Shown here: positions 4,635 to 51,221 of the stretch, piece after piece
How positions within the stretch are numbered: the first letter of the stretch is position 1
How the letters are laid out: every line of letters begins with the position of its first letter
DNA from: a virus
IMG/VR virus record: IMGVR_UViG_3300028584_000320
Location: 1,001 to 65,000 of that record
Direction: 5' to 3' (one strand)
Length of the DNA: 64,000 nt
Notes under the pieces: model-generated
Told to the model about the DNA's origin: nothing
The model's input: the letters and a program-made list of their open reading frames with translations, nothing else
The model's database searches: none
Position numbers and translations under genes: made by a program

Positions 4635-6248
4635 TTAGCCTCGGTAAAGCGGTCCGCGAATGGTGATAATGCTTCTCTTGGAATTTGGATAGGTACAAAT
4701 CAAAGAGTGAGACCAGCTCGAAGGGCTGTCTGCATTGTATCCTTGGTTCATAAGACCGCAGAGACCAGCAGAGAATACACCGTCCAGGATGCCAGCTGTG
4801 TGGTCGTGGGCTTTGTTCATTTTCATGGCGACTTTGGTCAGAGCCATGGAAGATCCCCTGGCTCCGTTGGGACCTTTGTCGCCGTGGTAGATGTTCTCGA
4901 TCGGGCTGGTGTCCCGGCAGATCAGGAACGAGGCTTCCCGGGGCGGGAAGGCGATGTCTTTCAGGCCGGCAGCATCATGTTGCGCCAAAGCCCATTGAAC
5001 GACATCGAAGCCTGAGTTGCCTTCTTCGACAGCTCCGTAGAGAGCGTCGTTAGCCTGGAACCAAAGACGAGCATTTACCTCATCTAGGCGAGGATCAGCT
5101 TCTCTGAGCCAGCGAGGAAACGCATCGTTGTGGTTTGAAGGGATGACTGCTGTCTCACAGAAGTCTCTTGATATGGCTCTCAGGAACCTTGAGCCCTTGA
5201 TGAAGGCCTTCTGTATGGATCCTCCAGTCGACATAAGCGTCTGAAAGCGGAAAAGATGGTCGCCTCTGCGATGGTGATTGCGGTCCGCAAAGTCGATCAA
5301 GTCGTGGATGAATTGGTATTTGGGCTGCAGATGGTCGATGAGACCATCAGTAACCTTCTCCATGCTGTCAGCGTCGACGCCCCAGATGACCTTGGTGACG
5401 ACTGGATCCACTTTCTCGATGTGAACGTCGCCAGGGGTGATGGCCTCGACACGATGGCCTCTGGTGACGACGCCGGCGTTAGTCTGGGCGTCTAGATCCT
5501 GGAACGATCCATCTTCAGTGCCGCTGATCTGCCTGCAGAACACCACGCCATCGGGTGTGACCTCGACGATCGTGGCTCCGAAGACATGATGGAACTCGGC
5601 TTTGAGTCCGGCTTTCTTGGCCACGTAGTTGGGCACCGTACAGGCGCCTGTGGTCATCAGCATGGCTGGGTGACGAGTGAAGTGGTTTGGTACTGAGACC
5701 AGTTGGACCTTGGCGTGGGGGAACACGCCCCAGGCTCCTTGGGTGTAGGTGTCCAGGCCGGAGAGAGGCCTCACCGCGGTCGGCAAAGTGTTCATCTCAG
5801 CGCAGAACACGATGTCAGGACCCAGCTGGACTCGATCGTGGCGCATGAAGGGCTGGACTTCGCTAGCGAAGACAGCGGACCTGGCTGCGTGGTCCTCGAA
5901 CAGGCCCTTTTGGTAGGTGAAGCCTCCGACGATGACCTGGGCACCAATGTCGTGGGCGTAGGCTTGGAGGTTGTGCCAGAAGGGCAGGAACACGCTGGTA
6001 TTGTCTTGGGCTGAAGTCAGGATGAACCTGGCTGTCTTGCCGGCGACTGAGGTGTTCTTTCTATTGGTTCCGCGGATAGCAGCGTCTCGTCTGGCTCGAG
6101 CTCCTGCAATGGCATGATCTACTGCTGAGTTGTGTACGCCAAGATGTTTGGCGGCTTTTCTATGGGAACCGTGTTCCCTTACAGCTTGTAGGTAGACTCT
6201 CTGACGATCTGTGGCGTATTCGATAAGCACTTCATTAAGGTCAGGCAT
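4635..6248 (-). CDS. calcineurin-like metallophosphoesterase with N-terminal HTH
   Basis: Motifs GDVH, HDLID, SNHN, YHGD, AHDH; N-terminal GSHRKAAKHLGVHNSAV helix-turn-helix. Confidence 0.75.
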   Translation of the reverse strand: MPDLNEVLIEYATDRQRVYLQAVREHGSHRKAAKHLGVHNSAVDHAIAGARARRDAAIRGTNRKNTSVAGKTARFILTSAQDNTSVFLPFWHNLQAYAHDIGAQVIVGGFTYQKGLFEDHAARSAVFASEVQPFMRHDRVQLGPDIVFCAEMNTLPTAVRPLSGLDTYTQGAWGVFPHAKVQLVSVPNHFTRHPAMLMTTGACTVPNYVAKKAGLKAEFHHVFGATIVEVTPDGVVFCRQISGTEDGSFQDLDAQTNAGVVTRGHRVEAITPGDVHIEKVDPVVTKVIWGVDADSMEKVTDGLIDHLQPKYQFIHDLIDFADRNHHRRGDHLFRFQTLMSTGGSIQKAFIKGSRFLRAISRDFCETAVIPSNHNDAFPRWLREADPRLDEVNARLWFQANDALYGAVEEGNSGFDVVQWALAQHDAAGLKDIAFPPREASFLICRDTSPIENIYHGDKGPNGARGSSMALTKVAMKMNKAHDHTAGILDGVFSAGLCGLMNQGYNADSPSSWSHSLICTYPNSKRSIITIRGPLYRG

Positions 6249-6365: not shown

Positions 6366-7804
6366 GCGACCATGTCGAGAAGCGTATCGGCAACCCTTGA
6401 GGCGGCCATTTTTGCCCATTGGTCTTGGCCGAACTGGTGCATGTGATTGCCGTCGCCAACGGCCAGCCAATTAGTCCCGGTCGGCAACCAATTCTCCGAG
6501 ACGTTCTCGATATACCTCGTTCGATCCTGCCCGTCTGCGGCGAGGAAACCTGCCTGAATGCTCTGCGAGAGGGTAATGACCCCGGCGCTGCTACCCACGA
6601 CAGGGCCGATGCCCACAATGTATGCGCTGGGCCTCGCGGCTCGGATCGCATTCAGGGTGTCGGCCACCTTGTTCGTCAAGGTGGTGCCAGAGGTGTCGTT
6701 CTGCGAGCCTATAAACAGATAAATATCTGCTTCCGCATCAATGAAATCTTGCACCCGGTTTGGGTGACTCCAGGCAGCAGCGTTACTAACTGTAACATTC
6801 CACCCCGTGGAGCCTTGCGCAGTAATGAGCGCTTGATCACACAGGCCGAGCATTTGCGCGATCCGCAGGCCGATATGTCCGCCTGCATAGCCGAGATAAG
6901 TTCCAGCCTGTATGCTGTCGCCTATGACGCATATTTTCGGCATATCAACCGGGATTGGATCTTCATAGATTTTGTATCCGGTAGGTAGGACTAGACCCCT
7001 AAGCTCAAGACCTCCATGCCATACGAGTTCAACGCGCCGCATATTGCGCGTTGTTCCGTAGTTCTCATACGCTGGGAACGTCAGCTGAAGGCCAGTTCCC
7101 GACCCGGTTGTTGCTGTCTGTAATTGAGTGAGGCCGAGCGGGTTTGAGTTCATTGCGCCGCGATCTAGGGGCGTTACCGCCGTGACCACGCCTCCGGTGA
7201 CCGCTCGCACCCTGACCGTCAGCCCAGTACCGGTCACGCCAGACGGTATGAGCGTGACTATGTCCCCGATTGCGTGGGAGGAGCCACCAGATACCACGGT
7301 CGGAGCTTCGCTAGCGTAGCCAAAAGCATCAGTATTGCTTCCAAAATTGAATTGGAGATATCGAAAATTATTAAAGGCGATGGGAGCGTATTTATAATCG
7401 TCATACGCCAACTCACCATCGACCATCAGACCCATGCGTGAGGACTGACCCTCATAGACGCACGCCTCAAATGCTGGAGCGTCCGTAAGGAAGCGAACGC
7501 GAAACGGGCAGTTCCCGCCAGTCTTCGTCCCGTCAATGCCTGTGATATGCTTTCCCTCGCCGCCTTGACTGTCTGCGGTTAGCGGCGCTCCTGCAACATT
7601 GATCAGCGGGCTATTCCAGAGGTAGGTAACGGCCCCTCCGCTTTTTGTTCCGTCGACAACGCTGGTAGCCCCAGCACTGACTGAGCAAGTGGGTGGAGAG
7701 GCCATCGTCGCCGCAGGTAGCTGCAAGCCATCAAAGGATTGCGCCCAACGACGGACCTTGTCGGCGTTGTAGTTTGAGGCGGTAATCAGACGAGGAGCGA
7801 GCAT
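6362..7804 (-). CDS. SGNH/GDSL hydrolase-domain protein (module 1)
   Basis: VIGDSIQAG, QGSTG, GSQND, DGNHMH blocks; Gly/Thr-rich beta-rich central region. Confidence 0.85.
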   Translation of the reverse strand: MLAPRLITASNYNADKVRRWAQSFDGLQLPAATMASPPTCSVSAGATSVVDGTKSGGAVTYLWNSPLINVAGAPLTADSQGGEGKHITGIDGTKTGGNCPFRVRFLTDAPAFEACVYEGQSSRMGLMVDGELAYDDYKYAPIAFNNFRYLQFNFGSNTDAFGYASEAPTVVSGGSSHAIGDIVTLIPSGVTGTGLTVRVRAVTGGVVTAVTPLDRGAMNSNPLGLTQLQTATTGSGTGLQLTFPAYENYGTTRNMRRVELVWHGGLELRGLVLPTGYKIYEDPIPVDMPKICVIGDSIQAGTYLGYAGGHIGLRIAQMLGLCDQALITAQGSTGWNVTVSNAAAWSHPNRVQDFIDAEADIYLFIGSQNDTSGTTLTNKVADTLNAIRAARPSAYIVGIGPVVGSSAGVITLSQSIQAGFLAADGQDRTRYIENVSENWLPTGTNWLAVGDGNHMHQFGQDQWAKMAASRVADTLLDMVA

Positions 7805-8184
7805 TATGCGGCCTCCATCAGATATGCGCCGTCGTCGTCCGTCAGGATCGCGCCGTCGCTGTCAGTGAGAAAGATGAAGCCAGCAGGCACCCCCCCACCC
7901 GTGTCTCGGGTGATGGTGACGGCTTGCATATTCTGTTCTCCAAGCTTGTAGAGAACCTCTTGCACTTCGTGGAACAGCACATGACTAAGTGCGTAACTGC
8001 TGATCATGTCAGCACCACCGCCGTCATGATAGAAGTCGCTGATTTTGGTGTAGGTCTCGGGAATACTCTCACCGTATTCCTGGACGACTACGTTCCTGTC
8101 TGAAGCCCGGTAGGCTAGCTGATAGCGCATACTATCCGTTCTTCTTAAAAGAAAGAGAGCCAGTATCTGCTGGATAGCAGACAC
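7804..8184 (-). CDS. small conserved protein, paralog of 4307-4624, acidic C-terminal tail
   Basis: GTG start with GAGGGAG SD (alternative ATG at 8130); TAATG overlap with SGNH gene; tail LTDSDGAILTDDDGAYL. Confidence 0.85.
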   Translation of the reverse strand: MSAIQQILALFLLRRTDSMRYQLAYRASDRNVVVQEYGESIPETYTKISDFYHDGGGADMISSYALSHVLFHEVQEVLYKLGEQNMQAVTITRDTGGGVPAGFIFLTDSDGAILTDDDGAYLMEAA

Positions 8185-8233
8185 TGACTCCCTCTTAAAC
8201 GAAGAACTTTGTTAGTTACAAGTTTGTGGGAGT

Positions 8234-8374
8234 CTAAGACAATGCGTAGTTAGCCTGAGCAATGTCTTGATAGAGGCTTGGGTCCACTTTGCCGACACCA
8301 ACAGGACGTTGAACAATCTGCGAGACCAGGTAACTAAGCATGTCGCTTTTGGCGATCAGCTGGAGCTGCAGATT
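8234..8374 (-). pseudogene. displaced remnant of the RNAP2 3' end (46 codons + TAG)
   Basis: Translates NLQLQLIAKSDMLSYLVSQIVQRPVGVGKVDPSLYQDIAQANYALS*, 28/46 identical to the last 46 aa of RNAP2. Confidence 0.9.
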
Positions 8375-9092
8375 GTCAGGTCCCATGGCGAGCTGTGAAG
8401 CCGTACTTCGCTTCGGCGTTTTTGCGAGCAGCTACTGCGTCTTCGAGGAGGCAGAAGTAACCTAGTGGAACCGCCACCTTGTTCACGTTTAGGGTTGCTC
8501 GCCACTTATTACAATTTTCCGCCCATGTAACGCCAGAGCAGCCGCTTAGATTGTTTATGTACTTGCGTTTATTCTGCATGTTACCTGACACGGTTTTGCT
8601 TATGACATTGTCAGGCGTGTTTTCGGTTTTATTTCCGTTGTCGTGATCCACGTTGTCTGGGTCAACACCATGGATCATTTTATATATGATCCGATGTACC
8701 AAATATTTTACCCCGTCTAGGCACACTCTAAGATAACCGTCGTTTGTCAGCCTGCCGGCGGTTGTTAGAGCGTAGCGATTATTCCATAGGTTTGCGGTGT
8801 GTTCAGCTGACCTATACCCAGTTTCTTTAAAATGACTTGTTGGCCGCGTTTTCCAGGTAAGCCCTCCTGTCAAGGGCTCGTAGCGGAACGCTGATACAAG
8901 GTATTCCCTGCTGGGGAGTTGTATTGCTTTGCGGGGCACTTGAGAACATCCTCAGCTAAGTGCGTAATTTGCTTCTGGAATAATTTTCCAGAGCGTTTCA
9001 TCAATCTTACTCACGGTAATAGCTCTGCCAACTATTTGAGATACCAAATATGACAGCAGGTCAGACTTAGCGATCGAAGACAGTTGGTTTAC
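8375..9092 (-). mobile_element. homing-endonuclease cassette (replacement RNAP2 tail + HNH-AP2 gene)
   Basis: AT-rich 718-bp block; removing it fuses RNAP2 codon TAC (9095-9093) in frame to the remnant at 8374. Confidence 0.8.
8376..8939 (-). CDS. HNH homing endonuclease with AP2-like C-terminal domain
   Basis: YLVHRIIYKM..VDHDNGNKTENTPDN HNH core; SGCSGVTW..KWRA..LGYF..EDAVAARKNAE AP2 domain. Confidence 0.9.
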   Translation of the reverse strand: MPRKAIQLPSREYLVSAFRYEPLTGGLTWKTRPTSHFKETGYRSAEHTANLWNNRYALTTAGRLTNDGYLRVCLDGVKYLVHRIIYKMIHGVDPDNVDHDNGNKTENTPDNVISKTVSGNMQNKRKYINNLSGCSGVTWAENCNKWRATLNVNKVAVPLGYFCLLEDAVAARKNAEAKYGFTARHGT

Positions 9093-10163
9093 GTACTGCC
9101 GGCGCAGGTCATTGCCGTAGTGGGGCAAGCACCTGAAGCAGTCATGGACCGAGATGACCTTGAACGGCTTCTCAGGCAGACTGTTGATGAGCTCCAGGAC
9201 CACATCAGCATCGATCAGTCCGACGTTCTGTTCGTCGATGACGTCAAGGATGCGGGCAGATAGATATCCGCTGGCTCGATAGTGATCCCACAGCTTTCCG
9301 AGAAGGATGTCTTTAGGACGATCGATCCGTCGGTCAGAAGCAGCTCCGTGGCTGCTGAGAGCTGCTCGGACGTTAGCGATTTGAGCAGGGTCGTAATCAC
9401 ATCGTCTGGACATTTCACGGACGATCATCCCGTCGACTGAGTGAATGGTATTGGCGCCGAGTGACCGGCCACCTTCGGTAGGTGCGTTGACCTTGTAAGG
9501 AACCTCATAGGGCACGTCCATAAAATGGACGGTATCGACCACCCGGCTCATGACCTTGACGTGGACGTGGAAGTTGTCCGGAAGGATCCAGTCATGGCTC
9601 AGGGCATCGGGGTTCCACATGGTCAGGAACGCTTCGTTGAGCTCCCAGGCTCCTGGAGCCAGGTCGGTCATGGTTTGGTAGAAGGTGTCGAGCAGAGCCC
9701 CTTCACCGAACACTTTTCTTGGCATTGCGGTGGAACCATAGAGGGCAGTCATCACTGCCATTTTTGTCTGCTCCGCGGTCACATTGGCGGTTCCGCCTGT
9801 GCGGTTCAGCATCTCTTGATAGATGCCCCAATAGGCGTTCTCACGATTCCCGGTGTCGACGACATTGCACAGCTGGGCAGCCAGACGATCGCCAGTGAGA
9901 GCAGCGAGCAGCTGCAGGCCCGAAGCCGTGCCATCCAGGCTGATCATGTAGCCGATGGGCTTGCCCTTCTGGACATCACGCCAGGCTTTGACGCCGGCGT
10001 AATAAAGGGCAGGTTCCTTGGCCTGCTGGATCATGTCTTCCAGCCCCAGCTCGTGCTGGTCGAACCAAGAGAGACGTTCAGCCCAGGTCTTCTTGTCGAG
10101 GCCGAAGTTGCTAGCGATGTCGATCTTGAGATATTCGCGGCCGGTGAAGGTTTCGAAAGCCAT
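8952..10163 (-). CDS. N4 RNA polymerase II subunit 2 (RNAP2, gp16-like)
   Basis: T7-type motif A SLDGTASGLQ, motif B KMAVMTALYGS, motif C SVHDCF. Confidence 0.95.
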   Translation of the reverse strand: MAFETFTGREYLKIDIASNFGLDKKTWAERLSWFDQHELGLEDMIQQAKEPALYYAGVKAWRDVQKGKPIGYMISLDGTASGLQLLAALTGDRLAAQLCNVVDTGNRENAYWGIYQEMLNRTGGTANVTAEQTKMAVMTALYGSTAMPRKVFGEGALLDTFYQTMTDLAPGAWELNEAFLTMWNPDALSHDWILPDNFHVHVKVMSRVVDTVHFMDVPYEVPYKVNAPTEGGRSLGANTIHSVDGMIVREMSRRCDYDPAQIANVRAALSSHGAASDRRIDRPKDILLGKLWDHYRASGYLSARILDVIDEQNVGLIDADVVLELINSLPEKPFKVISVHDCFRCLPHYGNDLRRQYVNQLSSIAKSDLLSYLVSQIVGRAITVSKIDETLWKIIPEANYALS

Positions 10164-10187
10164 GGTGCAGTCTCCAAAGTATGAGCC

Positions 10188-10220
10188 AAAGAAAAAGGCC
10201 CCATCGAGTGATGGAGCCCT
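10188..10220 (-). terminator. rho-independent terminator
   Basis: GGGCTCCATC-ACTC-GATGGGGCC then TTTTTCTTT on the minus strand. Confidence 0.7.
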
Positions 10221-10255
10221 GCGTATTGCGCCAGACTGTGTTGGGTTATTGGGCT

Positions 10256-10687
10256 CTAGATGTTGAGCTCAACGTCGCTTTCTTTTGTAAAGTCGTCGCA
10301 TATGCTTCGCGAGATACCCAGTAGGCCCAGATTATCGTCATTTGTTCTACAGACGATGTCGGTATCATCTTCGCCAATACGAATAAACTCGGTGTTTAAT
10401 CCGAACTCTTGGGCCTCATAGATCAGATTTTCCCAAGCTTGAACGTCTTCGTAGCTTTCATACCATTTCCAGCTATAGCCACTTAGGTCGAGAACATGGA
10501 TTAGTATTTCTTCTGAACTCTTTTGTTCCTTTAAGTAAATGTCGGCCTTGACTGTGTATCTCGACAGGGAATCTTTAAAATACCTGAACACTTCTGATCC
10601 GAGGATCGTTGTGTGAAGTAGGAGAAACTCATCGAGCTTCTCTTTGGGTCCATAGATCAAGGACCTGACTTGGCTGCGGTATCCCAT
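10256..10687 (-). CDS. hypothetical phage protein
   Basis: 143-aa ORF, MGYRSQV...FIRIGEDDTDI pattern typical of phage hypotheticals. Confidence 0.75.
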   Translation of the reverse strand: MGYRSQVRSLIYGPKEKLDEFLLLHTTILGSEVFRYFKDSLSRYTVKADIYLKEQKSSEEILIHVLDLSGYSWKWYESYEDVQAWENLIYEAQEFGLNTEFIRIGEDDTDIVCRTNDDNLGLLGISRSICDDFTKESDVELNI

Positions 10688-11389: not shown

Positions 11390-11609
11390 CGATTAAGGCC
11401 TTCACGTCCTCGCTAGGCTCGTAGTAACCCCAGGAGCTGTCTTCTTCTTCTTCCTCTGAGTAGATGCGCTCGGCTTTAGCGCTCCCCCAGCCGGCTTTGA
11501 AGCCAGCCCGGAACGCCTCTTCGCCGAGGACGTAGGCAGCGTCAGTGGTTAGCTTTTTGGTCAATCGATGTACTCCTTGTCGGCCAGCATCACGCAGGCT
11601 TTGTTCCAC
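11382..11609 (-). CDS. hypothetical protein
   Basis: 75-aa ORF overlapping the RNAP1 3' end; true start may be downstream. Confidence 0.55.
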   Translation of the reverse strand: MEQSLRDAGRQGVHRLTKKLTTDAAYVLGEEAFRAGFKAGWGSAKAERIYSEEEEEDSSWGYYEPSEDVKALIDG

Positions 11610-12400
11610 GGGGCTGCCTGGTACGATACGTGGTAGCCCTGGCAGTATGTACGACCGCGTTTGTCGTACTTGTGGGTGAGGTAGAACTCATTCCCTTCCT
11701 GGATCAGGAGGGCGATGACCTCGTGAGCGGTGCGATCGTATTTATCAAAGGCACGCTTTCGCTTCTCGAAGTCCTCTCTGGTCTCGCCTGACTTAGGCTT
11801 GTCCAGGTTCTTCCATTGGTTCTTGACCATGGTGGCGGTGTCCAGGTCCACCGAGAATTTGATCCTGTTGGCTCGATTCAGGTGGTCGATACACACGTCA
11901 TCATCGTGGTGGTTCTTCTTCAGGATCACCGAGCCACCGGACATCAGATAGCCGGTCTCGCTGTTGGTGGTGATGGTCTTGGGCTCAACGACCATGGGCA
12001 GAGGATACTGGAACATGTCCAGCTCACGCTGCAGGTCATCGGAGATGGTGTACCTGACGACGCAGATCCGCAGGTCTGTAGCCCAGTCCAGGAGGTCAGC
12101 TTCGACAGCCTTCCAGAGCATGTCCGCGGTCAGCTGGCTGTCGTTGAAATGGTGCCTCAGGATGCCGATCAGGGTCGGCAGAGTGGTCCGCTTGTGCAGA
12201 GCCATCTGAGCCAGGACATCGAACCCGAATGGCAGAGGGACTCCGTGTTCAATCATATGGGCGCCAAAGTCGAACTCTTTGCAGGTTTCGAACTCCTTAC
12301 GGATCCTTGGCAGGGTTTGGTTCTTGTTGAACAGCAGCTCCAGCTGAATTTGATGGGCTATACGATCGGCTTGAGGGTCGTTCATAGCGAGAGCAAGCAT
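11561..12400 (-). CDS. N4 RNA polymerase II subunit 1 (RNAP1, gp15-like)
   Basis: YLTHKYDKRGRTY (DxxGR motif) at the C-terminus; start moved to ATG 12400 after GGAG SD. Confidence 0.92.
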   Translation of the reverse strand: MLALAMNDPQADRIAHQIQLELLFNKNQTLPRIRKEFETCKEFDFGAHMIEHGVPLPFGFDVLAQMALHKRTTLPTLIGILRHHFNDSQLTADMLWKAVEADLLDWATDLRICVVRYTISDDLQRELDMFQYPLPMVVEPKTITTNSETGYLMSGGSVILKKNHHDDDVCIDHLNRANRIKFSVDLDTATMVKNQWKNLDKPKSGETREDFEKRKRAFDKYDRTAHEVIALLIQEGNEFYLTHKYDKRGRTYCQGYHVSYQAAPWNKACVMLADKEYID

Positions 12401-12430
12401 CGTTCTCTCCATACAGATAGAGGAATAGCC

Positions 12431-12469
12431 AAAGAAAAAGCCACTCTCGATGGCTATCGAGGGTGGCTT
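12431..12469 (-). terminator. rho-independent terminator upstream of RNAP1
   Basis: 14-bp stem AAGCCACCCTCGAT/ATCGAGAGTGGCTT (one mismatch) then TTTCTTT. Confidence 0.75.
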
Positions 12470-12495
12470 GTGTAGGCACTTAGCAAGCACCAAAC

Positions 12496-46200: not shown

Positions 46201-49200
46201 GGAAGGCATGAGCAGCGCCGAGCAGGTCATGGTTCTGAACCAGCTGATGGAAGAAGAACTGGCTGCGATCGACGAAGAAGCCGCGTACCTGGAGAAGGGC
46301 ACGAAGGAAGCCAAGGCCTTTGCGGAAAAGAAAACCCGCAACGCGAAGGAGGTTTCGGCTGCGCCGAAAGCTACTAAGACCCAAGCCCCGAAAGTCACCC
46401 AGGGCGTTGATCTGCTTCGGATGGTTCGTGCTGCCAAGGCGTCTCCCGATCAGCTGAACCTCCTGAAAGAGGTTGCCAAATCGCTGGCCAAAAGCGGCTG
46501 GGAAGTGGTCGAAGGTACTGCAGATCAGCTGGCTCAATATGCCATTAGCAAGGGCCAAGAGCCCTACCGCGGTGAACCAGGTCAGACCATCAAGGGCTAT
46601 GCGTCTTTGGCTGAGCAGCGGATCTATGTGGCTTCAGGCGAGAGCGAAACGCTTCTCCATGAGCTGATCCACGCCTCGGTGTCCCAGACCATCCTGGCTC
46701 ACTATCAGGGCAATTCCACGCCTGAAGTGGCTGAGGCCATCAAGCGCATGGAGACCCTGAAGAATGAGTGGCTGGCTATGGATCGTCAGGCCCTGTCCGA
46801 GCTGACGCCCGGCCAGCGCCAAGCCTATCGTGATGCTGTCCACCAGATGACTCTGGAGGCCGGGCGTACCGATCGATCCAAGGAAGAGAACGAGGCTGCA
46901 GCCCTTGATGAGTTCCTGGCCTGGAACCTGTCCAACCAGGATCTGATCAAGGTTGCCCAGGGCACGAAAGTTGAGACACGCTTCGCTCGAGTGGTGAAGC
47001 GGGCAGTGGCTGCGCTCAGGTCGCTGATCTACGGCAAGGGCTCTGTGCGGGGCGGCAACTTCTACACCGCTCTGCGTTTCAACGCCGGCATCCTGATGAA
47101 CGCCAGTCCTACGCTGCAGAGCCGATCGGATCTGGTGTTCCGTGCCCAGCTGGCTGGCAACGCAACCCGTACTGATACGATCCTCAAGGGCCTACAAGCC
47201 AAGATCAATGTCTATCTGAACCAGCATTCGAACGAGACTATCAACGAGATGGTGTCCAAGGAGTTTGGTGCAGTTGCCGTTGATGTTGGGTTCGACCTGG
47301 CTCAGTCCTTCAGGAAGGCCGGCTTTGATATCTCTCATCAGGATGAGATCGCGTTTGCTTCGCTGGTCGCCGTGCTTGGAACCAACATGAAGCTGGATGC
47401 AGCTTCTCTTGGTCGGATCGGGGATCTGTATGCCCATGTGAACAAGATGATCTCGCCTACCGACTTCGTGACGGAGGAAGGCAACCAGGCCCAGGAGAGC
47501 ATCGGCAACACCAAGGTTCAGGCGCTCCGCGGTATTCTGAACGGTCAGTCGATCGAGCGCACAGACGCCTATGGGCGCTCGACCCTGATGCCGGCGTTTC
47601 TGGCTCTCGCCATGGTCAATGATGAGTTCCGGGCTGTGCTCTCGAAGATGGATCTGCCCAAGGCTGAAAAGCTTAAGGGCGATAGCGTCGACAACATTGC
47701 CCAGAACATTGGCAACAGTGCGATCGATAGCCTGTCTGAAATGGTGAGCGGAGAGGGCCGTAACCGTCCTGACGTCCGGTCGGCCATCGACACCCTGACC
47801 GAGCACCTGGCTAAGACCGTCAGCCGGGATGAGCGCATGGTTCTGCGGGCTACGGATCCCATCGCCAACATGATCGACAAGGCCAACGACAAGGTCGCTG
47901 CGGTAATGCAGTCAGGCGTGAAGAAGGCCTATGACAAGCTGGGTGATCTCGAGGCCGGAGCCACGGGTAAGAAGACCAAGGCGCTGCTCGAGGTCGCAAA
48001 GCTGATCGTGGCTCTGCCGAGCGAGGATCTGGGTAAAGGCGCCGGCGAAGGGTGGCTGTCTCTGGCCAACAAGTCGAATGCCTGGGAGCCGCTTCGGGCT
48101 GTCCTGAACGACCTGGTAGGCCGGTCGGAGAGCAATGCTCCTATCTTTGATCTGATCAAGCCGGTCCGTTCCTTTGTACAGGCTGTCCGCCAGCAGGCCC
48201 GGGAGTTTGTGCCTAACCTCATTGGTTCCAAGTTCAAGAAGCCCCTGGCCAAAGAGCAGTGGTCGCATGTGTTTAGCGGCCTGGCTCAGAGCGATCTGGC
48301 TGCCTTGAAATTGGGTCGTAAGGCTGAGGACGTGCTGCAGTTCCTGTCGGACGACACCAAGCGTAGTGCCGAGATCAGCCGTCTGGAGAAACAAATCGAA
48401 CAGCTGGTGGGCGCCGACACCTGGAAGGTGATGAAGCCCAAGGCTGAGCAGCTGGCCAAGTTCATGAACACCCGGGAGAAGGGCGTTCACCTCCTGCGTA
48501 ATGCCGAGGCTGTGGCGGGTCTTTATGGGCTGAAGCAAGGCTACGTCCCGATCGATGGCGTTGCTGCTAAAGTGGACCAGCTGGTGAGCTTGTACGCTGT
48601 CGACACGCTGCCGACCGACACCAGGGCGTCGTTGGCCTCTTTGGTTCAGGACGAGTCCGAGGGCATGGTCTACGCCCTGGAGTACATCGTCGGTCAGCGA
48701 GTGACGGAGCTGGCCAAGGCTTCAACGCCGAAGGCGAGAGCCAACCACTATAAAGGCTATGTGCCCTCGACCGCGGAACGAGGCGTTCAGCTGATCGTGG
48801 CTTCGGACAGCGAAAAGGTTCGTCTGGAGATGTTGGGGTTCTCTCGCAAGGGCGACTACAAAGGCAGCCGCTATGAGCGTCGTCAGGGTCTGGGCTACTA
48901 CTATGCGCCCCTGGCTAGCCGATCGACTTTCTCAGCCGGCGTGATGCAGAACGTCCGCCAGACGGCTTCCGGCGTGGATCCAGTGACGGGCTTCACACAC
49001 GATGGCCTGATGATTGCTGGCCGCATTGAGAGCCCTGCAGCTATCCGCCGCATCCAAGCTCAGATGGCCGTCCGAGGCATTGCTGAGACAGAAGGCCTGC
49101 TTCCGGTGTTCGGGGTCGACGGCTCTGTGGTCGCCTACGAACGTGGTGTGGATCCCCTCCAGGAGGAGCTTCTGAAGCGGGACAAGCATCTTGGCCGGAT

Positions 49201-50524
49201 GTTGGGTGTGTGGCGTGGTCGCCAGGCCGAAGAGGCTATTGCTCAGCAGTTCAACGAGCAGCTGGTGACCAGGCTGCAGACGATCTGGGAAGAGGGCAAA
49301 GGCAAGACCCGCGGAAACGAGTTCATCAATCTGTTCGACGCTGACGAGCAGAAGAAGGACCCAGTTATGGCTGATGCCATGAGCCTGCTCACGCCTGAGG
49401 CCCTTGAGCACATCAAGAACACCTTTGGTGCTGACGGCTTCATGGTTCGTCGGGACATGATAAACGACGCCATCGGCTACCGAGCGGCTTCGATTGGTGA
49501 TGCCTGGCACGGCACGACTCGCATTCCTGCAGCGGCCTCTGACGTGGTTCGCAAACTGGCTATCGGTGTGTGGGGCAAGGATGCCTATCGCAACCTGGTG
49601 GTGGCTGAGAAGCTGACCCAAAACCTGGTGAGCGAAGCCCGCCAGACCATCGTGGTTCGATCGGTTGTGGTGCCTGTGTCGAACCTGGTGGCCAACATCT
49701 ACCAGATGCTGTCCAGAGGTGTTCGCCTGGACCGCATCGCCAAGGACATGCCCAAGAAGCTGGCTGAGGTGAATGGCTACGTAAAGCGCCGTAAGCGCCT
49801 CCTGGAGCTGGAAGCCGACCTTCGTGCAGCCGGTGACAGCTCAGCCCGTGTTCGTCAGATCCAGACCGAGATGAAGATCATCAATGACACCGACAAGCGG
49901 ATGTCTATCTGGCCGTTGATTGCGGCCGGCGAGTTCTCGTCGATCTCTGAGGCCGGTAGCCTGGAGAAGGAGGAGCTCAGCCTCTATGAGGGCCGGCTGA
50001 CGGACTACATCGAGAGCAAGGTGGACAAGCTCCCCAAGGGTCTAAAGACCGCGGTTCGCTACGGTCTCGTGACCCAGGACACGGCGCTGTTCCAGGGCAT
50101 GGCCAGAGCCATGGAATACGGGGACTTCCTAGGTAAGGCTATTCGATACGATCACCTGATCGAGGAGAAGAGACTGTCTCAGGAAGAAGCCTTGGCTTCG
50201 ATCGGCGAAGAGTTCGTGAACTACGATCGCCTGCCTGGCCGAACCAGGGCCTACCTGGAGAACATGGGTCTTCTCTGGTTCTACAACTTCAAGATACGAA
50301 GCGTGAAGGTGGCTTTGGCTGCTATCCGAGAAAACCCTCTCCACGCCTTGCTGGTCTCGTTGATCCCGACTCCCCCGTTCATTGGATCGGTCGGGACCAT
50401 GCTGGGAGACAACGTGGTGGCCATGGCTGTCGATGGCAGCCTGCCTTGGTCCATCGGACCGGACATGGGCTTCAGGGCTCACGAGATGAACCCTACGGTT
50501 CAGCTTTTTGATCACGTCTTTTGA
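40217..50524 (+). CDS. virion-encapsidated RNA polymerase (N4 gp50, vRNAP)
   Basis: 3435 aa; GSGRL, motif A EADGMTNG, motif B RDVTKNPQTVIVYG, motif C VYDG; Pro/Glu/Lys linker. Confidence 0.96.
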   Translation: MADISALIAQSLGVVPSKQAEVSAAAEQKKQQLSGKTPAQAYLDAAARFKGQDVAGPDMSTGSAADIQRALLTESIASNQFYGDRSAERSEAETYGDIASGVGLGAVNSVLGIGALGLGVVSDELGTAAAEGISDFNKWGHDKQSAGLAAKRNAYGASNEVDMQDNAALYESDLAQYGAFQAGLNRMGRDAVDAGRNALEDPAILTDGIATGAGSLLVGGPASKALKAVGVAEKLAFPLAIGAMEGGGAYQGAVEASLAKGASRNDANAAGLIAAAVQAPVGAVTGKIVSKFETAPLKVSNLVEGLANIGRETLEEGLQSASGQFAQNVGVKVAVDPNQSLTEGVGEQTALGSLYGMGTAGVIQAPGLAGQAAVSGAKAAFNATVVPFMGREARIQEAAKAQSTEQANAAQAEVVAGAPTLRQELDALVGSSGSADAPKMAEYLNQFFDKVAFDPAEAANESPVVRAAVEGTNNRFDALKSVAAINDDPNASDQMKALAGAYLLKQYNEFKDLVHGGLNATVDKIDDNDPLLAKLREFEDTTLALASHPVIAPAMKAALEAAKSPAVAEQFSQASMEAPGGIEAAQQMAEAVTELTKSDPSSGNLEVLNTIRAHAVSGKIKLTPEQLSILTASSALIRGNAERVAAMKALGIKENARVSEEAQSLEANGDPDKEPVQSASAKAKAAIKAALSGDTELASLHLVDMRLLAEHFQNKVTAFNDNLASGRPDKKTGFTGIRKERRLAEAKWGPASPVWLNTGSETSIRLAQAAALDGKAIADMVNGLSEAFPDIAVKRVDPVALTVDPGLTKTAAEIMKERSRAKDKQPVQEAKPVEAPVQEKPQVDKPEPAKAEEEPAPVAEKPVKEEAPAKAEPALEKPVAEVVPDKKPAETAEKVAVEPEAKEAPFSKLIGAGKNRNWFINGFSAPDASLSRLVGMGDKVFSNIKAAVLSSTALANLTGKKNKAMGADLSASFGTVLGMSGSIVEVMEQRLAAFLSSTDIDKAREENPTQEWVGGRALNIVEVREDGTKGYNVELLQQAVLAGLSWLVQSQSRPLKGMDAEAVAEYAGKPVEQITPDMIDAFNSGVPLVQAAADMGAAITRFWGVKANDNAPEGLVKGVAEGVAKEIMAAMRHESVSLLDISPRTFADPVGQQDAESEDGAVEKSYQFVALKILGDTDTDKAGYRKAWRNMSTMPDAIEQAALVAPDPTRFVGAPSANVPKSQLRNSMVPLSDEQVEMVTNANQTAHMPNMPMVGLYKALGLDALRELFGAGLLDADVEAKTNVNTFRSMKGKNNSISGAFEAFESMVGSIELEAAELGKEAADVPVFFEHAVLGSGRLMVTGAYNPQASKLTREAWLPTRAVVDLTDPEMLTRFKLAVAQAWGEKVHKQSHEASGLVVDRMAQEDVSEVLAALDRFLDTGVMEDDFAQLMIEKFKGKQTAVALHASLEMARYFLASPEELKAFQTHLYVEADGMTNGPIMALYHLSEGSFTESWIELMSKGGLYLGAPGINARIFITGDKENELDVYNVSSTGTQANVAAAKKTYTGKVLRHSGLVDTLLKDLLKGASINDKGELEVGRDVTKNPQTVIVYGAGVAGVTNAVVKKIEEAFYAELTKAEQGLANNADDMIALVEELSSTFIGKSKDGEGFYVTLAREVNLPKDRSYTKYTLTKSQLKNLSGNVQFFFVSHMVKALEAVMDDTSKGRDALQQATAAQSLVMQHTFVKLISDKLATKSDDEAKNFLSKKEMREVERDLLKMFPLIKTDDQSFLAAKNAVSAVYSRARPGKDGKMPSRRRYFQFSRTLDGDLSSDALVRGPSNAGVAAIPMMVQGFGDALTIQKLTTGKDRPKRMLPVYDGIHFPLDTLKEDGTRANEAVYRAWQSNPLQAVSESFQGFLSNLSAKDASGEFSIGMSEELRMDLADLFLGKPRKGEPRRGMDPTEIQVELRLAGRRLANAARKSLARHRALARVQMSVDQMSSIEAAYEPNGKDLISLEGMSSAEQVMVLNQLMEEELAAIDEEAAYLEKGTKEAKAFAEKKTRNAKEVSAAPKATKTQAPKVTQGVDLLRMVRAAKASPDQLNLLKEVAKSLAKSGWEVVEGTADQLAQYAISKGQEPYRGEPGQTIKGYASLAEQRIYVASGESETLLHELIHASVSQTILAHYQGNSTPEVAEAIKRMETLKNEWLAMDRQALSELTPGQRQAYRDAVHQMTLEAGRTDRSKEENEAAALDEFLAWNLSNQDLIKVAQGTKVETRFARVVKRAVAALRSLIYGKGSVRGGNFYTALRFNAGILMNASPTLQSRSDLVFRAQLAGNATRTDTILKGLQAKINVYLNQHSNETINEMVSKEFGAVAVDVGFDLAQSFRKAGFDISHQDEIAFASLVAVLGTNMKLDAASLGRIGDLYAHVNKMISPTDFVTEEGNQAQESIGNTKVQALRGILNGQSIERTDAYGRSTLMPAFLALAMVNDEFRAVLSKMDLPKAEKLKGDSVDNIAQNIGNSAIDSLSEMVSGEGRNRPDVRSAIDTLTEHLAKTVSRDERMVLRATDPIANMIDKANDKVAAVMQSGVKKAYDKLGDLEAGATGKKTKALLEVAKLIVALPSEDLGKGAGEGWLSLANKSNAWEPLRAVLNDLVGRSESNAPIFDLIKPVRSFVQAVRQQAREFVPNLIGSKFKKPLAKEQWSHVFSGLAQSDLAALKLGRKAEDVLQFLSDDTKRSAEISRLEKQIEQLVGADTWKVMKPKAEQLAKFMNTREKGVHLLRNAEAVAGLYGLKQGYVPIDGVAAKVDQLVSLYAVDTLPTDTRASLASLVQDESEGMVYALEYIVGQRVTELAKASTPKARANHYKGYVPSTAERGVQLIVASDSEKVRLEMLGFSRKGDYKGSRYERRQGLGYYYAPLASRSTFSAGVMQNVRQTASGVDPVTGFTHDGLMIAGRIESPAAIRRIQAQMAVRGIAETEGLLPVFGVDGSVVAYERGVDPLQEELLKRDKHLGRMLGVWRGRQAEEAIAQQFNEQLVTRLQTIWEEGKGKTRGNEFINLFDADEQKKDPVMADAMSLLTPEALEHIKNTFGADGFMVRRDMINDAIGYRAASIGDAWHGTTRIPAAASDVVRKLAIGVWGKDAYRNLVVAEKLTQNLVSEARQTIVVRSVVVPVSNLVANIYQMLSRGVRLDRIAKDMPKKLAEVNGYVKRRKRLLELEADLRAAGDSSARVRQIQTEMKIINDTDKRMSIWPLIAAGEFSSISEAGSLEKEELSLYEGRLTDYIESKVDKLPKGLKTAVRYGLVTQDTALFQGMARAMEYGDFLGKAIRYDHLIEEKRLSQEEALASIGEEFVNYDRLPGRTRAYLENMGLLWFYNFKIRSVKVALAAIRENPLHALLVSLIPTPPFIGSVGTMLGDNVVAMAVDGSLPWSIGPDMGFRAHEMNPTVQLFDHVF

Positions 50525-50672
50525 AGACAGGCCGGAGCGCTAGAAATAGTGCTCCGGCTATGAGGGCGATCATGATTACGACCAGGATCACCTTGGCCAA
50601 AATGAAAATGGCCGCTGCCAGGATACCGGCAGCGGCCATAAACATCAGGGCCTTGAAGGCCAGTTTCGCCAT
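50493..50672 (-). CDS. small hydrophobic membrane protein (59 aa), 3' end overlapping vRNAP antisense
   Basis: MAKLAFKALMFMAAAGILAAAIFILAKVILVVIMIALIAGALFLALRPVFKRRDQKAEP. Confidence 0.55.
   Translation of the reverse strand: MAKLAFKALMFMAAAGILAAAIFILAKVILVVIMIALIAGALFLALRPVFKRRDQKAEP
50531..50558 (+). terminator. GAAA-tetraloop hairpin at the convergence of late and middle transcription
   Basis: GCCGGAGCGCTA-GAAA-TAGTGCTCCGGC; the one G.T pair works only on the plus RNA; no U-tract. Confidence 0.55.
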
Positions 50673-50675
50673 CAG

Positions 50676-51221
50676 TTAGGCGGCAGCTTCCGACGAGTCG
50701 TTCACCGGACGGCTCAGGCCGGCGAAGATCGAACGCTTCAGGGGCTGTGAGCCCTCGACGTCTTCCACGCCATCTTCGGCCGGCTCAGCGATTTCATCGC
50801 TGATGGCCACAGTGGGGTTGTTGCCGAACAGCGACTTGGGGGCACTGATGACAGCAGCTTCGCCCTCAGGCGACAGGGTCACTGCAGGAGCGACCTCATC
50901 TTCTTCAGTCTCGGCTTCAGCTTCGGCAGCGAGAGCAGCTTCAGCAGCCTTGCGGGTCACCCGGGGACGGAAGACAACCGGAGCTGCGGCCGTCTCAGTT
51001 ACCGGGGCTTGGGGAGCCGTCACCTGTTCAGCAGCAGGAGCCTGTACATTCTCGGCGCCGGCCTTGATGGGCGAGATGTCGATGTTGGCGATGAACCCAT
51101 CTTCCCCGCGGGTAGCGCGGATCTCCATGGTGATTTCCATGCCTTCCTTGACGGTGATCTGGCGTTCGATGTGGGCTCGGATCGCTTCTTGGATCTCGGA
51201 CTCAACGATAGTGATCTTCAT
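50676..51221 (-). CDS. conserved N4-like protein with acidic low-complexity tail
   Basis: MKI.I.E.EI.EAI..HI N-domain; KSLF/RSIF motifs echoing the SSB C-terminus. Confidence 0.75.
   Translation of the reverse strand: MKITIVESEIQEAIRAHIERQITVKEGMEITMEIRATRGEDGFIANIDISPIKAGAENVQAPAAEQVTAPQAPVTETAAAPVVFRPRVTRKAAEAALAAEAEAETEEDEVAPAVTLSPEGEAAVISAPKSLFGNNPTVAISDEIAEPAEDGVEDVEGSQPLKRSIFAGLSRPVNDSSEAAA

What the first reader, a model, noticed from the sequence alone, without database searches (positions are those of the whole stretch)
8234..9095. HNH cassette replaced the RNAP2 C-terminus and left the old 46-codon end behind as an in-frame fossil
Seen: directly after the HNH stop (TGA 8378-8376) lies an unannotated 141-nt segment encoding NLQLQLIAKSDMLSYLVSQIVQRPVGVGKVDPSLYQDIAQANYALS*. 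It is 28/46 identical to the last 46 aa of RNAP2 (VNQLSSIAKSDLLSYLVSQIVGRAITVSKIDETLWKIIPEANYALS*), which are also exactly 141 nt (9092-8952). Deleting 8375-9092 fuses RNAP2 codon TAC to the remnant in frame, with a 2-bp AC microhomology at the junction. The current tail and the HNH are AT-rich, while the remnant is closer to the rest of RNAP2 in composition. Inference: a free-standing endonuclease invaded an essential gene near motif C by carrying its own cleavage-resistant gene end. The remnant has no stops, so the event may be recent or reversible.
Basis: partly seen in the sequence, partly recalled or inferred. Interest (0 to 1): 0.8.

Follow-up and report, generated by a model that had tools for sequence, protein, structure and literature searches.

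The report
Endonuclease cassette replaced RNAP2's gene end
A selfish DNA-cutting enzyme gene has inserted into the essential RNA polymerase gene of an N4-like phage, bringing a foreign substitute for the last 46 codons and leaving the original end stranded downstream; the layout is long known from fungal mitochondria, but I found no published description of it in phages.

Summary
A 716-bp cassette sits after codon Y357 of the N4-type RNAP2 gene. It holds a foreign 46-codon gene end, a 12-nt spacer with a ribosome-binding site, and a full-length HNH-AP2 homing endonuclease gene. The native 46-codon end lies directly after the HNH stop.

Four relatives without the HNH (78-88% protein identity in the body) align up to base 9093 and resume at 8376, with a 2-nt AC overlap. 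In the two closest, the tail matches the remnant at 44/46 residues and the current tail at only 28/46. The new tail is a strong AT-rich outlier.

The remnant shows no decay (dN/dS about 0.1, like the gene body). A 160-nt contig from another metagenome run spans the body/new-tail junction at 93% identity, which argues against an assembly chimera.

No donor was found. Cleavage of the native site and resistance of the new tail are inferred, not shown. "Reversible" is not supported.

The architecture matches the endonuclease "mORF" gene hybrids of fungal mitochondria. This scan's earlier notes report it on other DNA (phage nrdB, terL, ninB). In two other N4-like phages the same RNAP2 block is invaded 16 codons upstream by a group I intron followed by an HNH gene.

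The parts
9093..10163 (-). Native body of the RNAP2 gene (N4 gp16-type subunit of the two-subunit phage RNA polymerase II), codons 1-357. It ends with motif C and the conserved block ..HDCFRCLPHYGNDLRRQY.
   Evidence: Pfam RNA_pol. phrog_2051 matched full length, E 5e-153. 84% nt identity to the HNH-less relatives L001/L003 right up to base 9093. The block 340-357 ranks 13th of 386 18-aa windows in conservation.
8952..9092 (-). Foreign replacement gene end: 46 codons plus TGA, in frame with the native body. This is the currently expressed C-terminus of RNAP2.
   Evidence: Only 28/46 aa identical to the tails of the closest relatives. pS 0.72 and dN 0.43 against the L001 tail; GC 0.404, GC3 0.383, lowest 0.2% of windows. 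It keeps every tail residue that is invariant in 27 other RNAP2s: Q360, L361, A365, S367, L370, K386, Y400, L402, S403. V358 occurs in 0 of 183 other tails.
8940..8953 (-). 12-nt spacer (8940..8951) between the RNAP2 stop and the HNH start. It carries a GAGGA Shine-Dalgarno (8953..8949) that overlaps the RNAP2 stop codon, 9 nt before the GTG start.
   Evidence: Read directly from the sequence.
8376..8939 (-). Free-standing HNH-AP2 homing endonuclease gene, 187 aa, GTG start, full length.
   Evidence: Pfam HNH_3, E 4e-7. phrog_99, E 6e-49. The family profile hits I-HmuI (1u3e, E 1e-8) and AP2/ERF domains (7wq5, E 6e-7). Family-invariant R83, H99 and N107 are kept, as are D98, N120 and N123, and the protein ends at the family's ..HG(T/R) terminus. 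It is the only copy in the 71.8-kb genome. It is absent from L001-L004 and L006.
8375..8376 (-). Right junction: the dinucleotide AC shared with the end of codon TAC (9094..9093). The inserted segment is therefore 8377..9092 (716 bp), or equally 8375..9090.
   Evidence: The two blastn segments against L001 overlap by 2 nt (L001 positions 1691-1692); sequence.
8234..8374 (-). Displaced native gene end (remnant): 46 intact codons plus TAG, no longer joined to the gene.
   Evidence: 44/46 aa identical to the tails of P0002/P0003. Against L001: dS 0.43 and dN 0.044, against 0.49 and 0.066 for the body. Same TAG stop as the relatives. phrog_2051 positions 359-401.
8092..8233 (-). Native sequence downstream of RNAP2 (intergenic region and the first ~13 codons of the next gene), still collinear with the HNH-less relatives.
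   Evidence: The blastn segment window 8376..8092 matches L001 1691..1973 at 79.6%.

Best explanation
This is a homing-endonuclease cassette of the gene-end-replacing kind. A free-standing HNH-AP2 endonuclease gene entered the RNAP2 gene of this N4-like phage together with the last 46 codons of a distantly related, AT-richer phage's RNAP2. The 716-bp unit sits exactly between codons Y357 and N358, at the 3' edge of the very conserved motif C block. The polymerase is now a hybrid of a native body and a foreign tail. The native tail is cut off from the gene and lies directly behind the HNH stop codon.

Most likely course (inferred): the HNH cut or nicked the HNH-less allele in or near the conserved QY|NLQL coding sequence during a mixed infection. 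The left end was repaired by copying from the donor through its gene end and the HNH gene. The right end was joined without homology, through the AC dinucleotide. The strongly recoded new tail (14 of its first 18 nt differ from the native tail) would no longer be a target, and it shares no stretch long enough for the cassette to be lost by recombination. The HNH is probably translated from the RNAP2 message through its own GAGGA site.

Shown: the structure, the polarity (which copy is native), the foreign composition, the presence/absence polymorphism, and the intactness of all three coding parts. Inferred: nuclease activity, the cut site, the immunity of the new tail, and the repair route.
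For: - Junctions: alignments to four HNH-less relatives stop at 9093 and resume at 8376 with a 2-nt overlap.
- Gene order: in the relatives RNAP2 is followed about 100 nt later by the next gene, with no HNH.
- Polarity: the two closest relatives' tails match the remnant at 44/46 and the current tail at 28/46.
- Remnant divergence (dS 0.43, dN 0.044) equals that of the body (0.49, 0.066), whereas the current tail is saturated at synonymous sites against both the L001 tail and the remnant (pS 0.72 and 0.89).
- Composition: tail GC is in the lowest 0.2% of windows and HNH GC in the lowest 2.8%.
- The HNH is full length with catalytic residues kept, and its family profile hits I-HmuI and AP2 domains.
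- The hybrid tail keeps all invariant residues.
- A second strain (93-95% identical contigs in run X1) has the HNH and a contig bridging the body/new-tail junction.
- The same conserved block of RNAP2 is invaded in two other N4-like phages by a group I intron followed by an HNH-AP2 gene after ..HD, 16 codons upstream. This part of the gene is therefore a recurrent endonuclease target.
- The same architecture is documented for endonuclease mORFs in fungal mitochondria (PMC3630166).
Against: - No donor was found. Nothing closer than 47% identity to the HNH, or 63% (29/46) to the new tail, turned up in cultured phages, IMG/VR, JGI metagenomes, the 5.8 billion protein clusters or the 1.84 billion representatives.
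- No other RNAP2 locus shows two tails: 196 phage records and 80 IMG/VR loci were checked. Spread of this cassette as a unit is seen only in the window and the X1 strain.
- Nuclease activity and target site are untested.
- The record is a metagenome-assembled virus, and the HNH/remnant junction has no read-level confirmation.
- The rare residues next to the junction (V358, S363) could reflect an odd donor lineage rather than selection for resistance.
Confidence: 0.85

Rival explanations
1. Metagenome assembly chimera. Two co-occurring N4-like phages were joined by the assembler within the conserved RNAP2 block, so no real molecule carries both gene ends.
For: The record is an assembled virus contig of 71,822 bp, not an isolate. 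The 33 nt before the left junction are nearly invariant among relatives and could in principle bridge two strains in a k-mer graph.
Against: - The right junction (HNH stop | remnant) shares only AC with the native sequence, so no shared k-mer could produce it.
- Both flanks of the insert belong to the same L001-like lineage.
- A separate 160-nt contig in run X1 spans the left junction, with 59 nt on the tail side and 101 nt on the body side, at 93% identity. It therefore comes from a different strain.
Confidence: 0.04
2. Ordinary recombination mosaic without homing. The foreign tail and the HNH gene arrived by illegitimate or short-homology recombination between two phages. The HNH was a passive passenger, possibly inactive or with an unrelated target.
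For: - N4-like genomes are mosaic just here: homology to relatives also ends about 13 codons into the next gene, at ~8092.
- The right junction is a 2-nt microhomology, typical of illegitimate joining.
- No cleavage data exist.
Against: - The insert begins exactly at the edge of one of the most conserved blocks of an essential gene and ends exactly at the HNH stop codon. This is an economy expected of a selected mobile unit.
- HNH-AP2 genes are an established homing family, and another branch of it rides a group I intron 16 codons upstream in two other N4-like phages.
- The same layout recurs with endonuclease ORFs in mitochondria.
Confidence: 0.09
3. In-situ tandem duplication of the native gene end, followed by divergence of one copy, with later insertion of an HNH gene between the copies.
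For: The two copies are of exactly equal length (141 nt) and in the same orientation.
Against: - The copies are saturated at synonymous sites (pS 0.89) and differ by 10 GC points, while the whole gene differs from HNH-less relatives by only dS 0.49.
- The closest relatives have a single tail of the remnant type.
- The new tail has no close match in this lineage.
Confidence: 0.01

Closest known systems
Mobile endonuclease ORFs (mORFs) of fungal mitochondria that create gene hybrids: Allomyces macrogynus atp6 (Paquin et al. 1994, as cited in PMC3630166) and Glomus sp. atp6, atp9, cox2 and nad3 (Beaudet et al. 2013, PMC3630166)
   Same: - An endonuclease ORF is inserted in the 3' part of an essential gene and preceded by a foreign, in-frame substitute C-terminus.
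- The native C-terminus is displaced downstream of the ORF.
- The native copy clusters with close relatives and the inserted copy does not.
- The donor is not identifiable (compared).
   Different: - The host genome is a lytic N4-like phage, not a mitochondrion.
- The enzyme is HNH-AP2, not LAGLIDADG or GIY-YIG.
- The host gene is an RNA polymerase subunit.
- The new tail ends with its own stop, and the HNH has its own start and ribosome-binding site, as in Glomus atp9 and cox2 but unlike the in-phase atp6 case.
Intronless homing by free-standing phage endonucleases (T4 Seg and Mob proteins; reviewed in PMC2988022; mobE in PMC2790892; SegB in PMC2330249)
   Same: A free-standing endonuclease gene lies next to or within conserved essential genes. 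It is thought to cut the endonuclease-less allele and be copied in together with flanking donor sequence (co-conversion).
   Different: In classic intronless homing both flanks recombine homologously, so the recipient's sequence is replaced and nothing is duplicated. Here the right side joined without homology and the old gene end was kept. This comparison rests on my knowledge of those papers' abstracts, not on a test here.
Group I intron with an HNH gene in RNAP2 of other N4-like phages (Pseudomonas phage ZC08, KU356691; IMG/VR contig IMGVR_UViG_3300050144_000101). An endonuclease insertion in ZC08 RNAP2 was reported by Amgarten et al. 2017 (PMC5418858)
   Same: Same host gene and same conserved block (motif C), with an HNH-AP2 type endonuclease (33% identical to the window's). 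The insertion point is only 16 codons upstream.
   Different: There the gene is kept whole by RNA splicing: Rfam RF00028 scores 77 and 89 bits. The window has no intron signal and keeps the gene whole by supplying a substitute gene end instead.

Membership tests
Gene-end-replacing endonuclease cassette (mORF-type gene hybrid) | An endonuclease ORF inserted within the 3' part of a host gene, absent from close relatives | tested here: met
   The HNH ORF lies at 8376..8939. L001-L004 and L006 lack it, and their alignment breaks at 9093/8376.
Gene-end-replacing endonuclease cassette (mORF-type gene hybrid) | A foreign substitute gene end, in frame with the native gene core and complete to the stop codon | tested here: met
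   8952..9092 holds 46 codons plus TGA. It keeps all invariant tail residues, has foreign composition and is saturated at synonymous sites (pS 0.72 against the L001 tail).
Gene-end-replacing endonuclease cassette (mORF-type gene hybrid) | The native gene end is displaced downstream of the endonuclease ORF and groups with close relatives | tested here: met
   The remnant 8234..8374 is 44/46 identical to the P0002/P0003 tails and 88% identical at the nt level.
Gene-end-replacing endonuclease cassette (mORF-type gene hybrid) | The endonuclease cleaves the cassette-free allele, and the hybrid allele is resistant | not testable with these tools
   This needs a cleavage assay. The only indirect hints are that 14 of the first 18 nt of the new tail differ from the native sequence and that V358 is unique among 183 tails.
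HNH-AP2 homing endonucleases (Pfam HNH_3 with an AP2-like DNA-binding domain; I-HmuI relatives) | HNH catalytic motif with the conserved His and Asn residues | tested here: met
   HNH_3 scores 29.9 bits, above the cut-off of 24.8. Family-invariant H99 and N107 are kept, as are D98, N120 and N123, in an alignment with 29 relatives. The family profile hits I-HmuI 1u3e at E 1e-8.
HNH-AP2 homing endonucleases (Pfam HNH_3 with an AP2-like DNA-binding domain; I-HmuI relatives) | C-terminal AP2-type DNA-binding domain | tested here: inconclusive
   The single sequence gives no Pfam AP2 hit even at E 10. The family profile that includes it does hit AP2/ERF domains 7wq5 (E 6e-7) and 7et4 (E 0.002) over positions 108-177.
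N4-type RNA polymerase II large subunit (RNAP2, N4 gp16 type) | Full-length match to the family, including motif C and the C-terminal ..NYALS end | tested here: met
   phrog_2051 positions 1-401 of 401, E 5e-153. Pfam RNA_pol. 60-86% identity to 119 metagenomic homologues of about 400 aa. The RNAP1 partner gene is at 11561..12493 (phrog_2166).
Group I intron-borne homing endonuclease | A group I ribozyme core flanking the endonuclease ORF, interrupting the host reading frame | tested here: not met
   The permissive Rfam scan of window 7800..10300 finds no intron. The same scan finds RF00028 in L065 and ZC08. In the window the RNAP2 frame is closed by a stop before the HNH.

The most novel reading that the evidence does not exclude
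The cassette is an active 'cut-and-rescue' drive in N4-like phage populations. The HNH cuts the native QY|NLQL site of the RNAP2 gene of co-infecting relatives, which lack the cassette. This both copies the cassette in and cripples the competitor's middle-gene transcription, while the recoded tail makes its carrier immune. Together with the intron-borne HNHs that sit 16 codons upstream in other N4-like phages, RNAP2 motif C would be a contested target where splicing and gene-end replacement are two alternative solutions to the same invasion problem. The illegitimate right-hand join would mean such cassettes can cross into phages too diverged for two-sided homologous repair.
Probability: 0.35. 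Interest if true: 0.65.

Novelty: new member of a known kind. Interest (0 to 1): 0.5.

Why it matters
- **How the cassette avoids harm.** It shows how a selfish nuclease can enter the coding sequence of an essential phage gene, without an intron or an intein, by bringing its own substitute gene end.
- **Effect on annotation.** The event rewrites part of a core gene with sequence from a distant phage. That matters for phage phylogenies built on RNAP2 and for gene calling: the remnant is unannotated, and the hybrid could mislead recombination analyses.
- **A clean natural set for experiments.** Available here are the empty alleles (L001, L003, L004, L006), the filled allele (the window), a second filled strain (X1), and an intron-based alternative at nearly the same site (ZC08, L065). 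This would allow a direct comparison of the two invasion routes.
- **Literature.** I found the layout described for fungal mitochondria but not for phages in the searched library. Earlier notes of this scan report it for other phage genes, so it may be a general but overlooked mode of endonuclease spread in phages.

Tried and rejected
- **Donor search, all without a close hit.**
  - blastn of the cassette against 50,697 phage records: no match.
  - tblastn of the HNH against phages: best 44%.
  - HNH peptides against IMG/VR and JGI metagenome contigs: best 35%.
  - Word-based search of 5.8 billion proteins with the HNH: best 38%. The same search with the tail region alone found only itself.
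  - HMMER over 1.84 billion representatives: best 47%.
  - Ranking of 183 RNAP2 tails: best 28/46, spread over many lineages, so no donor clade can be named.
- **Search for further double-tail loci.** 196 cultured N4-like records each hold one tail. None of 80 IMG/VR RNAP2 loci has two.
- **Sequencing runs.** The first query listed none. The second listed one run with a small share. Laying it gave three short contigs and no coverage of the remnant or the right junction. The excised allele and the right junction therefore could not be checked in reads.
- **Other readings set aside.**
  - Group I intron in the window: none.
  - Paralogous HNH genes in the genome: none.
  - Promoter and terminator scan of the region: nothing telling.
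  - The 50-aa ORF 8234..8386 (ATG inside the HNH 3' end) could express the remnant, but it has no evident ribosome-binding site. I do not propose a function for it.
Full report
**What is there.** The window is part of a 71,822-bp metagenome-assembled virus record with the hallmarks of an N4-like phage (Schitoviridae). It carries RNAP1 (11561..12493, phrog_2166) and RNAP2 (8952..10163, phrog_2051 full length, Pfam RNA_pol) on the minus strand.

Directly after the RNAP2 stop comes a 12-nt spacer whose GAGGA overlaps the stop codon. It is followed by a GTG-initiated 187-aa ORF (8376..8939) that matches Pfam HNH_3 and phrog_99. One base after its TGA begins a 141-nt open frame (8234..8374). Its 46 residues are 28/46 identical to the last 46 residues of RNAP2, and the DNA is 72/141 identical. 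Matches by codon position are 25, 33 and 14 of 47. That is the signature of two coding copies that diverged under selection for a long time.

**Which copy is native.** A protein search gave 2,076 homologues. The closest are P0002 and P0003 (88-89% identical over residues 1-357), then P0004 (80%), then P0005-P0007 (74-77%). In P0002 and P0003 the last 46 residues are 44/46 identical to the remnant and only 28/46 to the current tail. P0004 gives 37 against 29.

Their contigs (L001-L004, and L006 from IMG/VR) show RNAP2 followed about 100 nt later by the next gene, with no HNH. Blastn of the window against these contigs runs at 78-84% identity up to base 9093, stops, and resumes at 8376. The two segments overlap by two bases on the relative. 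The last 33 nt before 9093 differ from L001 at one position, and the next six nt match at none. The insert is therefore 716 bp, flanked by the dinucleotide AC on both sides, exactly as proposed.

**Foreign origin and age.** The new tail has GC 0.404 and GC3 0.383, against 0.569 and 0.692 for the gene body. Only 0.2% of 141-nt windows in the 64 kb are as AT-rich. The HNH (0.489) lies in the lowest 2.8%. Against the L001 tail, the new tail is saturated at synonymous sites (pS 0.72, dN 0.43).

The remnant has dS 0.43 and dN 0.044, indistinguishable from the body (0.49 and 0.066). So the remnant was under purifying selection for nearly all of the time since this lineage split from the HNH-less one. 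The insertion is recent on that scale.

Being stop-free over 46 codons after so little time is expected and says nothing about function. The remnant and the tail share no exact run longer than 6 nt. With only a 2-nt junction repeat, I see no route for frequent precise excision, so 'reversible' is not supported.

**Is it an assembly artefact?** Because the record is a metagenome assembly, this had to be considered. The right junction cannot arise from a shared k-mer, since only AC is shared. Both flanks belong to one lineage.

One public run (X1, an industrial-waste metagenome) holds three short contigs of a related strain:
- 8498..8658 inside the HNH, 8 differences in 161;
- 9796..9961 in the body, 12 differences in 166;
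- 9034..9193 across the body/new-tail junction, 11 differences in 160.

A different strain therefore carries the same hybrid gene and the HNH. Within the bridging contig, the differences listed away from its ends are 1 on the tail side and 6 on the body side. This hints that the cassette is younger than the strain divergence, but the numbers are too small to claim it. The right junction and the remnant are not covered in X1.

**The endonuclease.** HMMER over 1.84 billion representatives finds 58,351 relatives, none above 47% identity. In an alignment with 29 of them the window protein keeps the family-invariant R83, H99 and N107, as well as D98, N120 and N123. It ends at the family's ..HG(T/R) terminus, so it is full length and probably active. 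The family profile matches I-HmuI (1u3e) and plant AP2/ERF domains, which places it among HNH-AP2 homing endonucleases. The single sequence does not reach Pfam AP2 on its own. It is the only such gene in this genome.

The cassette ends within two bases of the HNH stop codon and begins at the edge of the block 340-357, one of the most conserved stretches of RNAP2 (rank 13 of 386). The first residues of the new tail are unusual: V358 occurs in 0 of 183 other tails and S363 is rare. This fits a target-site change but does not prove one.

**Context in other N4-like phages.** No other locus with two tails was found among 196 cultured records or 80 IMG/VR loci. Two other N4-like phages do have RNAP2 interrupted 16 codons upstream, right after the catalytic ..HD of motif C, by a group I intron followed by an HNH-AP2 gene:
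- the IMG/VR contig behind L065 (RF00028, 77 bits);
- Pseudomonas phage ZC08 (RF00028, 89 bits).

An 'HE inserted within RNAP2' was reported for ZC08 by Amgarten et al. 2017 (PMC5418858). The window has no intron. The same stretch of the same essential gene has thus been invaded by two routes, splicing and gene-end replacement.

**Mechanism proposed.**
- Shown: the structure, the polarity, the foreign composition, the presence/absence polymorphism, and the intact coding capacity of the hybrid RNAP2, the HNH and the remnant.
- Inferred: during a mixed infection, the HNH of a distantly related, AT-richer N4-like phage (where it sat just downstream of RNAP2) broke the recipient's RNAP2 near codon 357/358. 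The left end invaded the donor in the nearly invariant ..PHYGNDLRRQY coding block and was extended through the donor's tail and the HNH gene. Lacking homology further on, it was joined to the right end through AC.
- An alternative I cannot exclude: the unit had already existed with a remnant in a close relative and entered by two-sided homologous repair, using the remnant as the right arm.

**Comparison with what is known.** The layout is that of the endonuclease mORF gene hybrids of fungal mitochondria: Allomyces atp6, and Glomus atp6, atp9, cox2 and nad3. These share the same three parts and the same phylogenetic pattern of native and inserted ends (PMC3630166). Classic intronless homing of T4 Seg and Mob endonucleases differs in that both flanks recombine homologously and nothing is left behind.

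In the searched literature I found no phage example. Barth et al. 2023 (PMC10448857) discuss nuclease genes at recombination boundaries but not duplicated gene ends. Earlier notes of this scan report the same architecture on other DNA: phage nrdB, terL, ninB and dCMP deaminase, bacterial ileS, and archaeal kae1 and gyrB. I did not re-test those.

**Verdict.** The enzymology is inferred. This is a new, very clean member of a known kind. Interest is moderate (0.5), raised somewhat by the availability of empty alleles, a second filled strain and an intron-based counterpart at nearly the same site.

Noticed in passing
L065:4009-4909 (IMGVR_UViG_3300050144_000101): The RNAP2 frame of another N4-like phage stops right after ..SIHD (motif C). 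A group I intron follows (Rfam RF00028, 77 bits, E 6e-19), then an HNH-AP2 ORF that runs to the contig end. A further HNH-AP2 ORF lies directly upstream of RNAP2 (L065:2448-2975).
   Followed up: partly
L090:8702-10860 (Pseudomonas phage ZC08, KU356691.1, record 48701-50860): RNAP2 is split after ..KSVHD by a group I intron (RF00028, 89 bits, E 1e-22 at L090:9704-9969) followed by the HNH ORF ZC08_055. The second exon ends ..ATYILT* near L090:10856 and is not annotated, and the pieces are labelled hypothetical proteins. A weaker, cut-off intron hit (E 0.002) lies at L090:11090-11300, just upstream of the I-HmuI-like gene ZC08_057.
   Followed up: partly
window 7804-8184 (boundary near 8092): Homology to the HNH-less relatives ends about 13 codons into the gene downstream of RNAP2. 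Relatives encode a 160-aa Big_2 protein there, while the window has an unrelated 126-aa ORF (likely true start ATG 8130). This is a second, independent mosaic boundary only about 140 nt from the remnant.
   Followed up: no
window 8234-8386 (-): An ATG inside the 3' end of the HNH gene opens a 50-aa frame (MGPD plus the 46-residue remnant). There is no evident ribosome-binding site, and whether the remnant peptide is ever made is unknown.
   Followed up: no
window 4635-6248 (-): A 537-aa protein matching phrog_1745 ('DNA transfer protein', E 5e-154) has weak helix-turn-helix and I-HmuI NUMOD-like Pfam hits at residues 13-51, all below the curated cut-offs.
   Followed up: no
window 9034-9193, run X1: In the related strain's contig that bridges the junction, the listed differences are 1 on the new-tail side against 6 on the native-body side. 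The HNH contig is 95% identical against 93% for the body contig. The cassette may be less diverged than its host gene, but the numbers are too small to test.
   Followed up: partly
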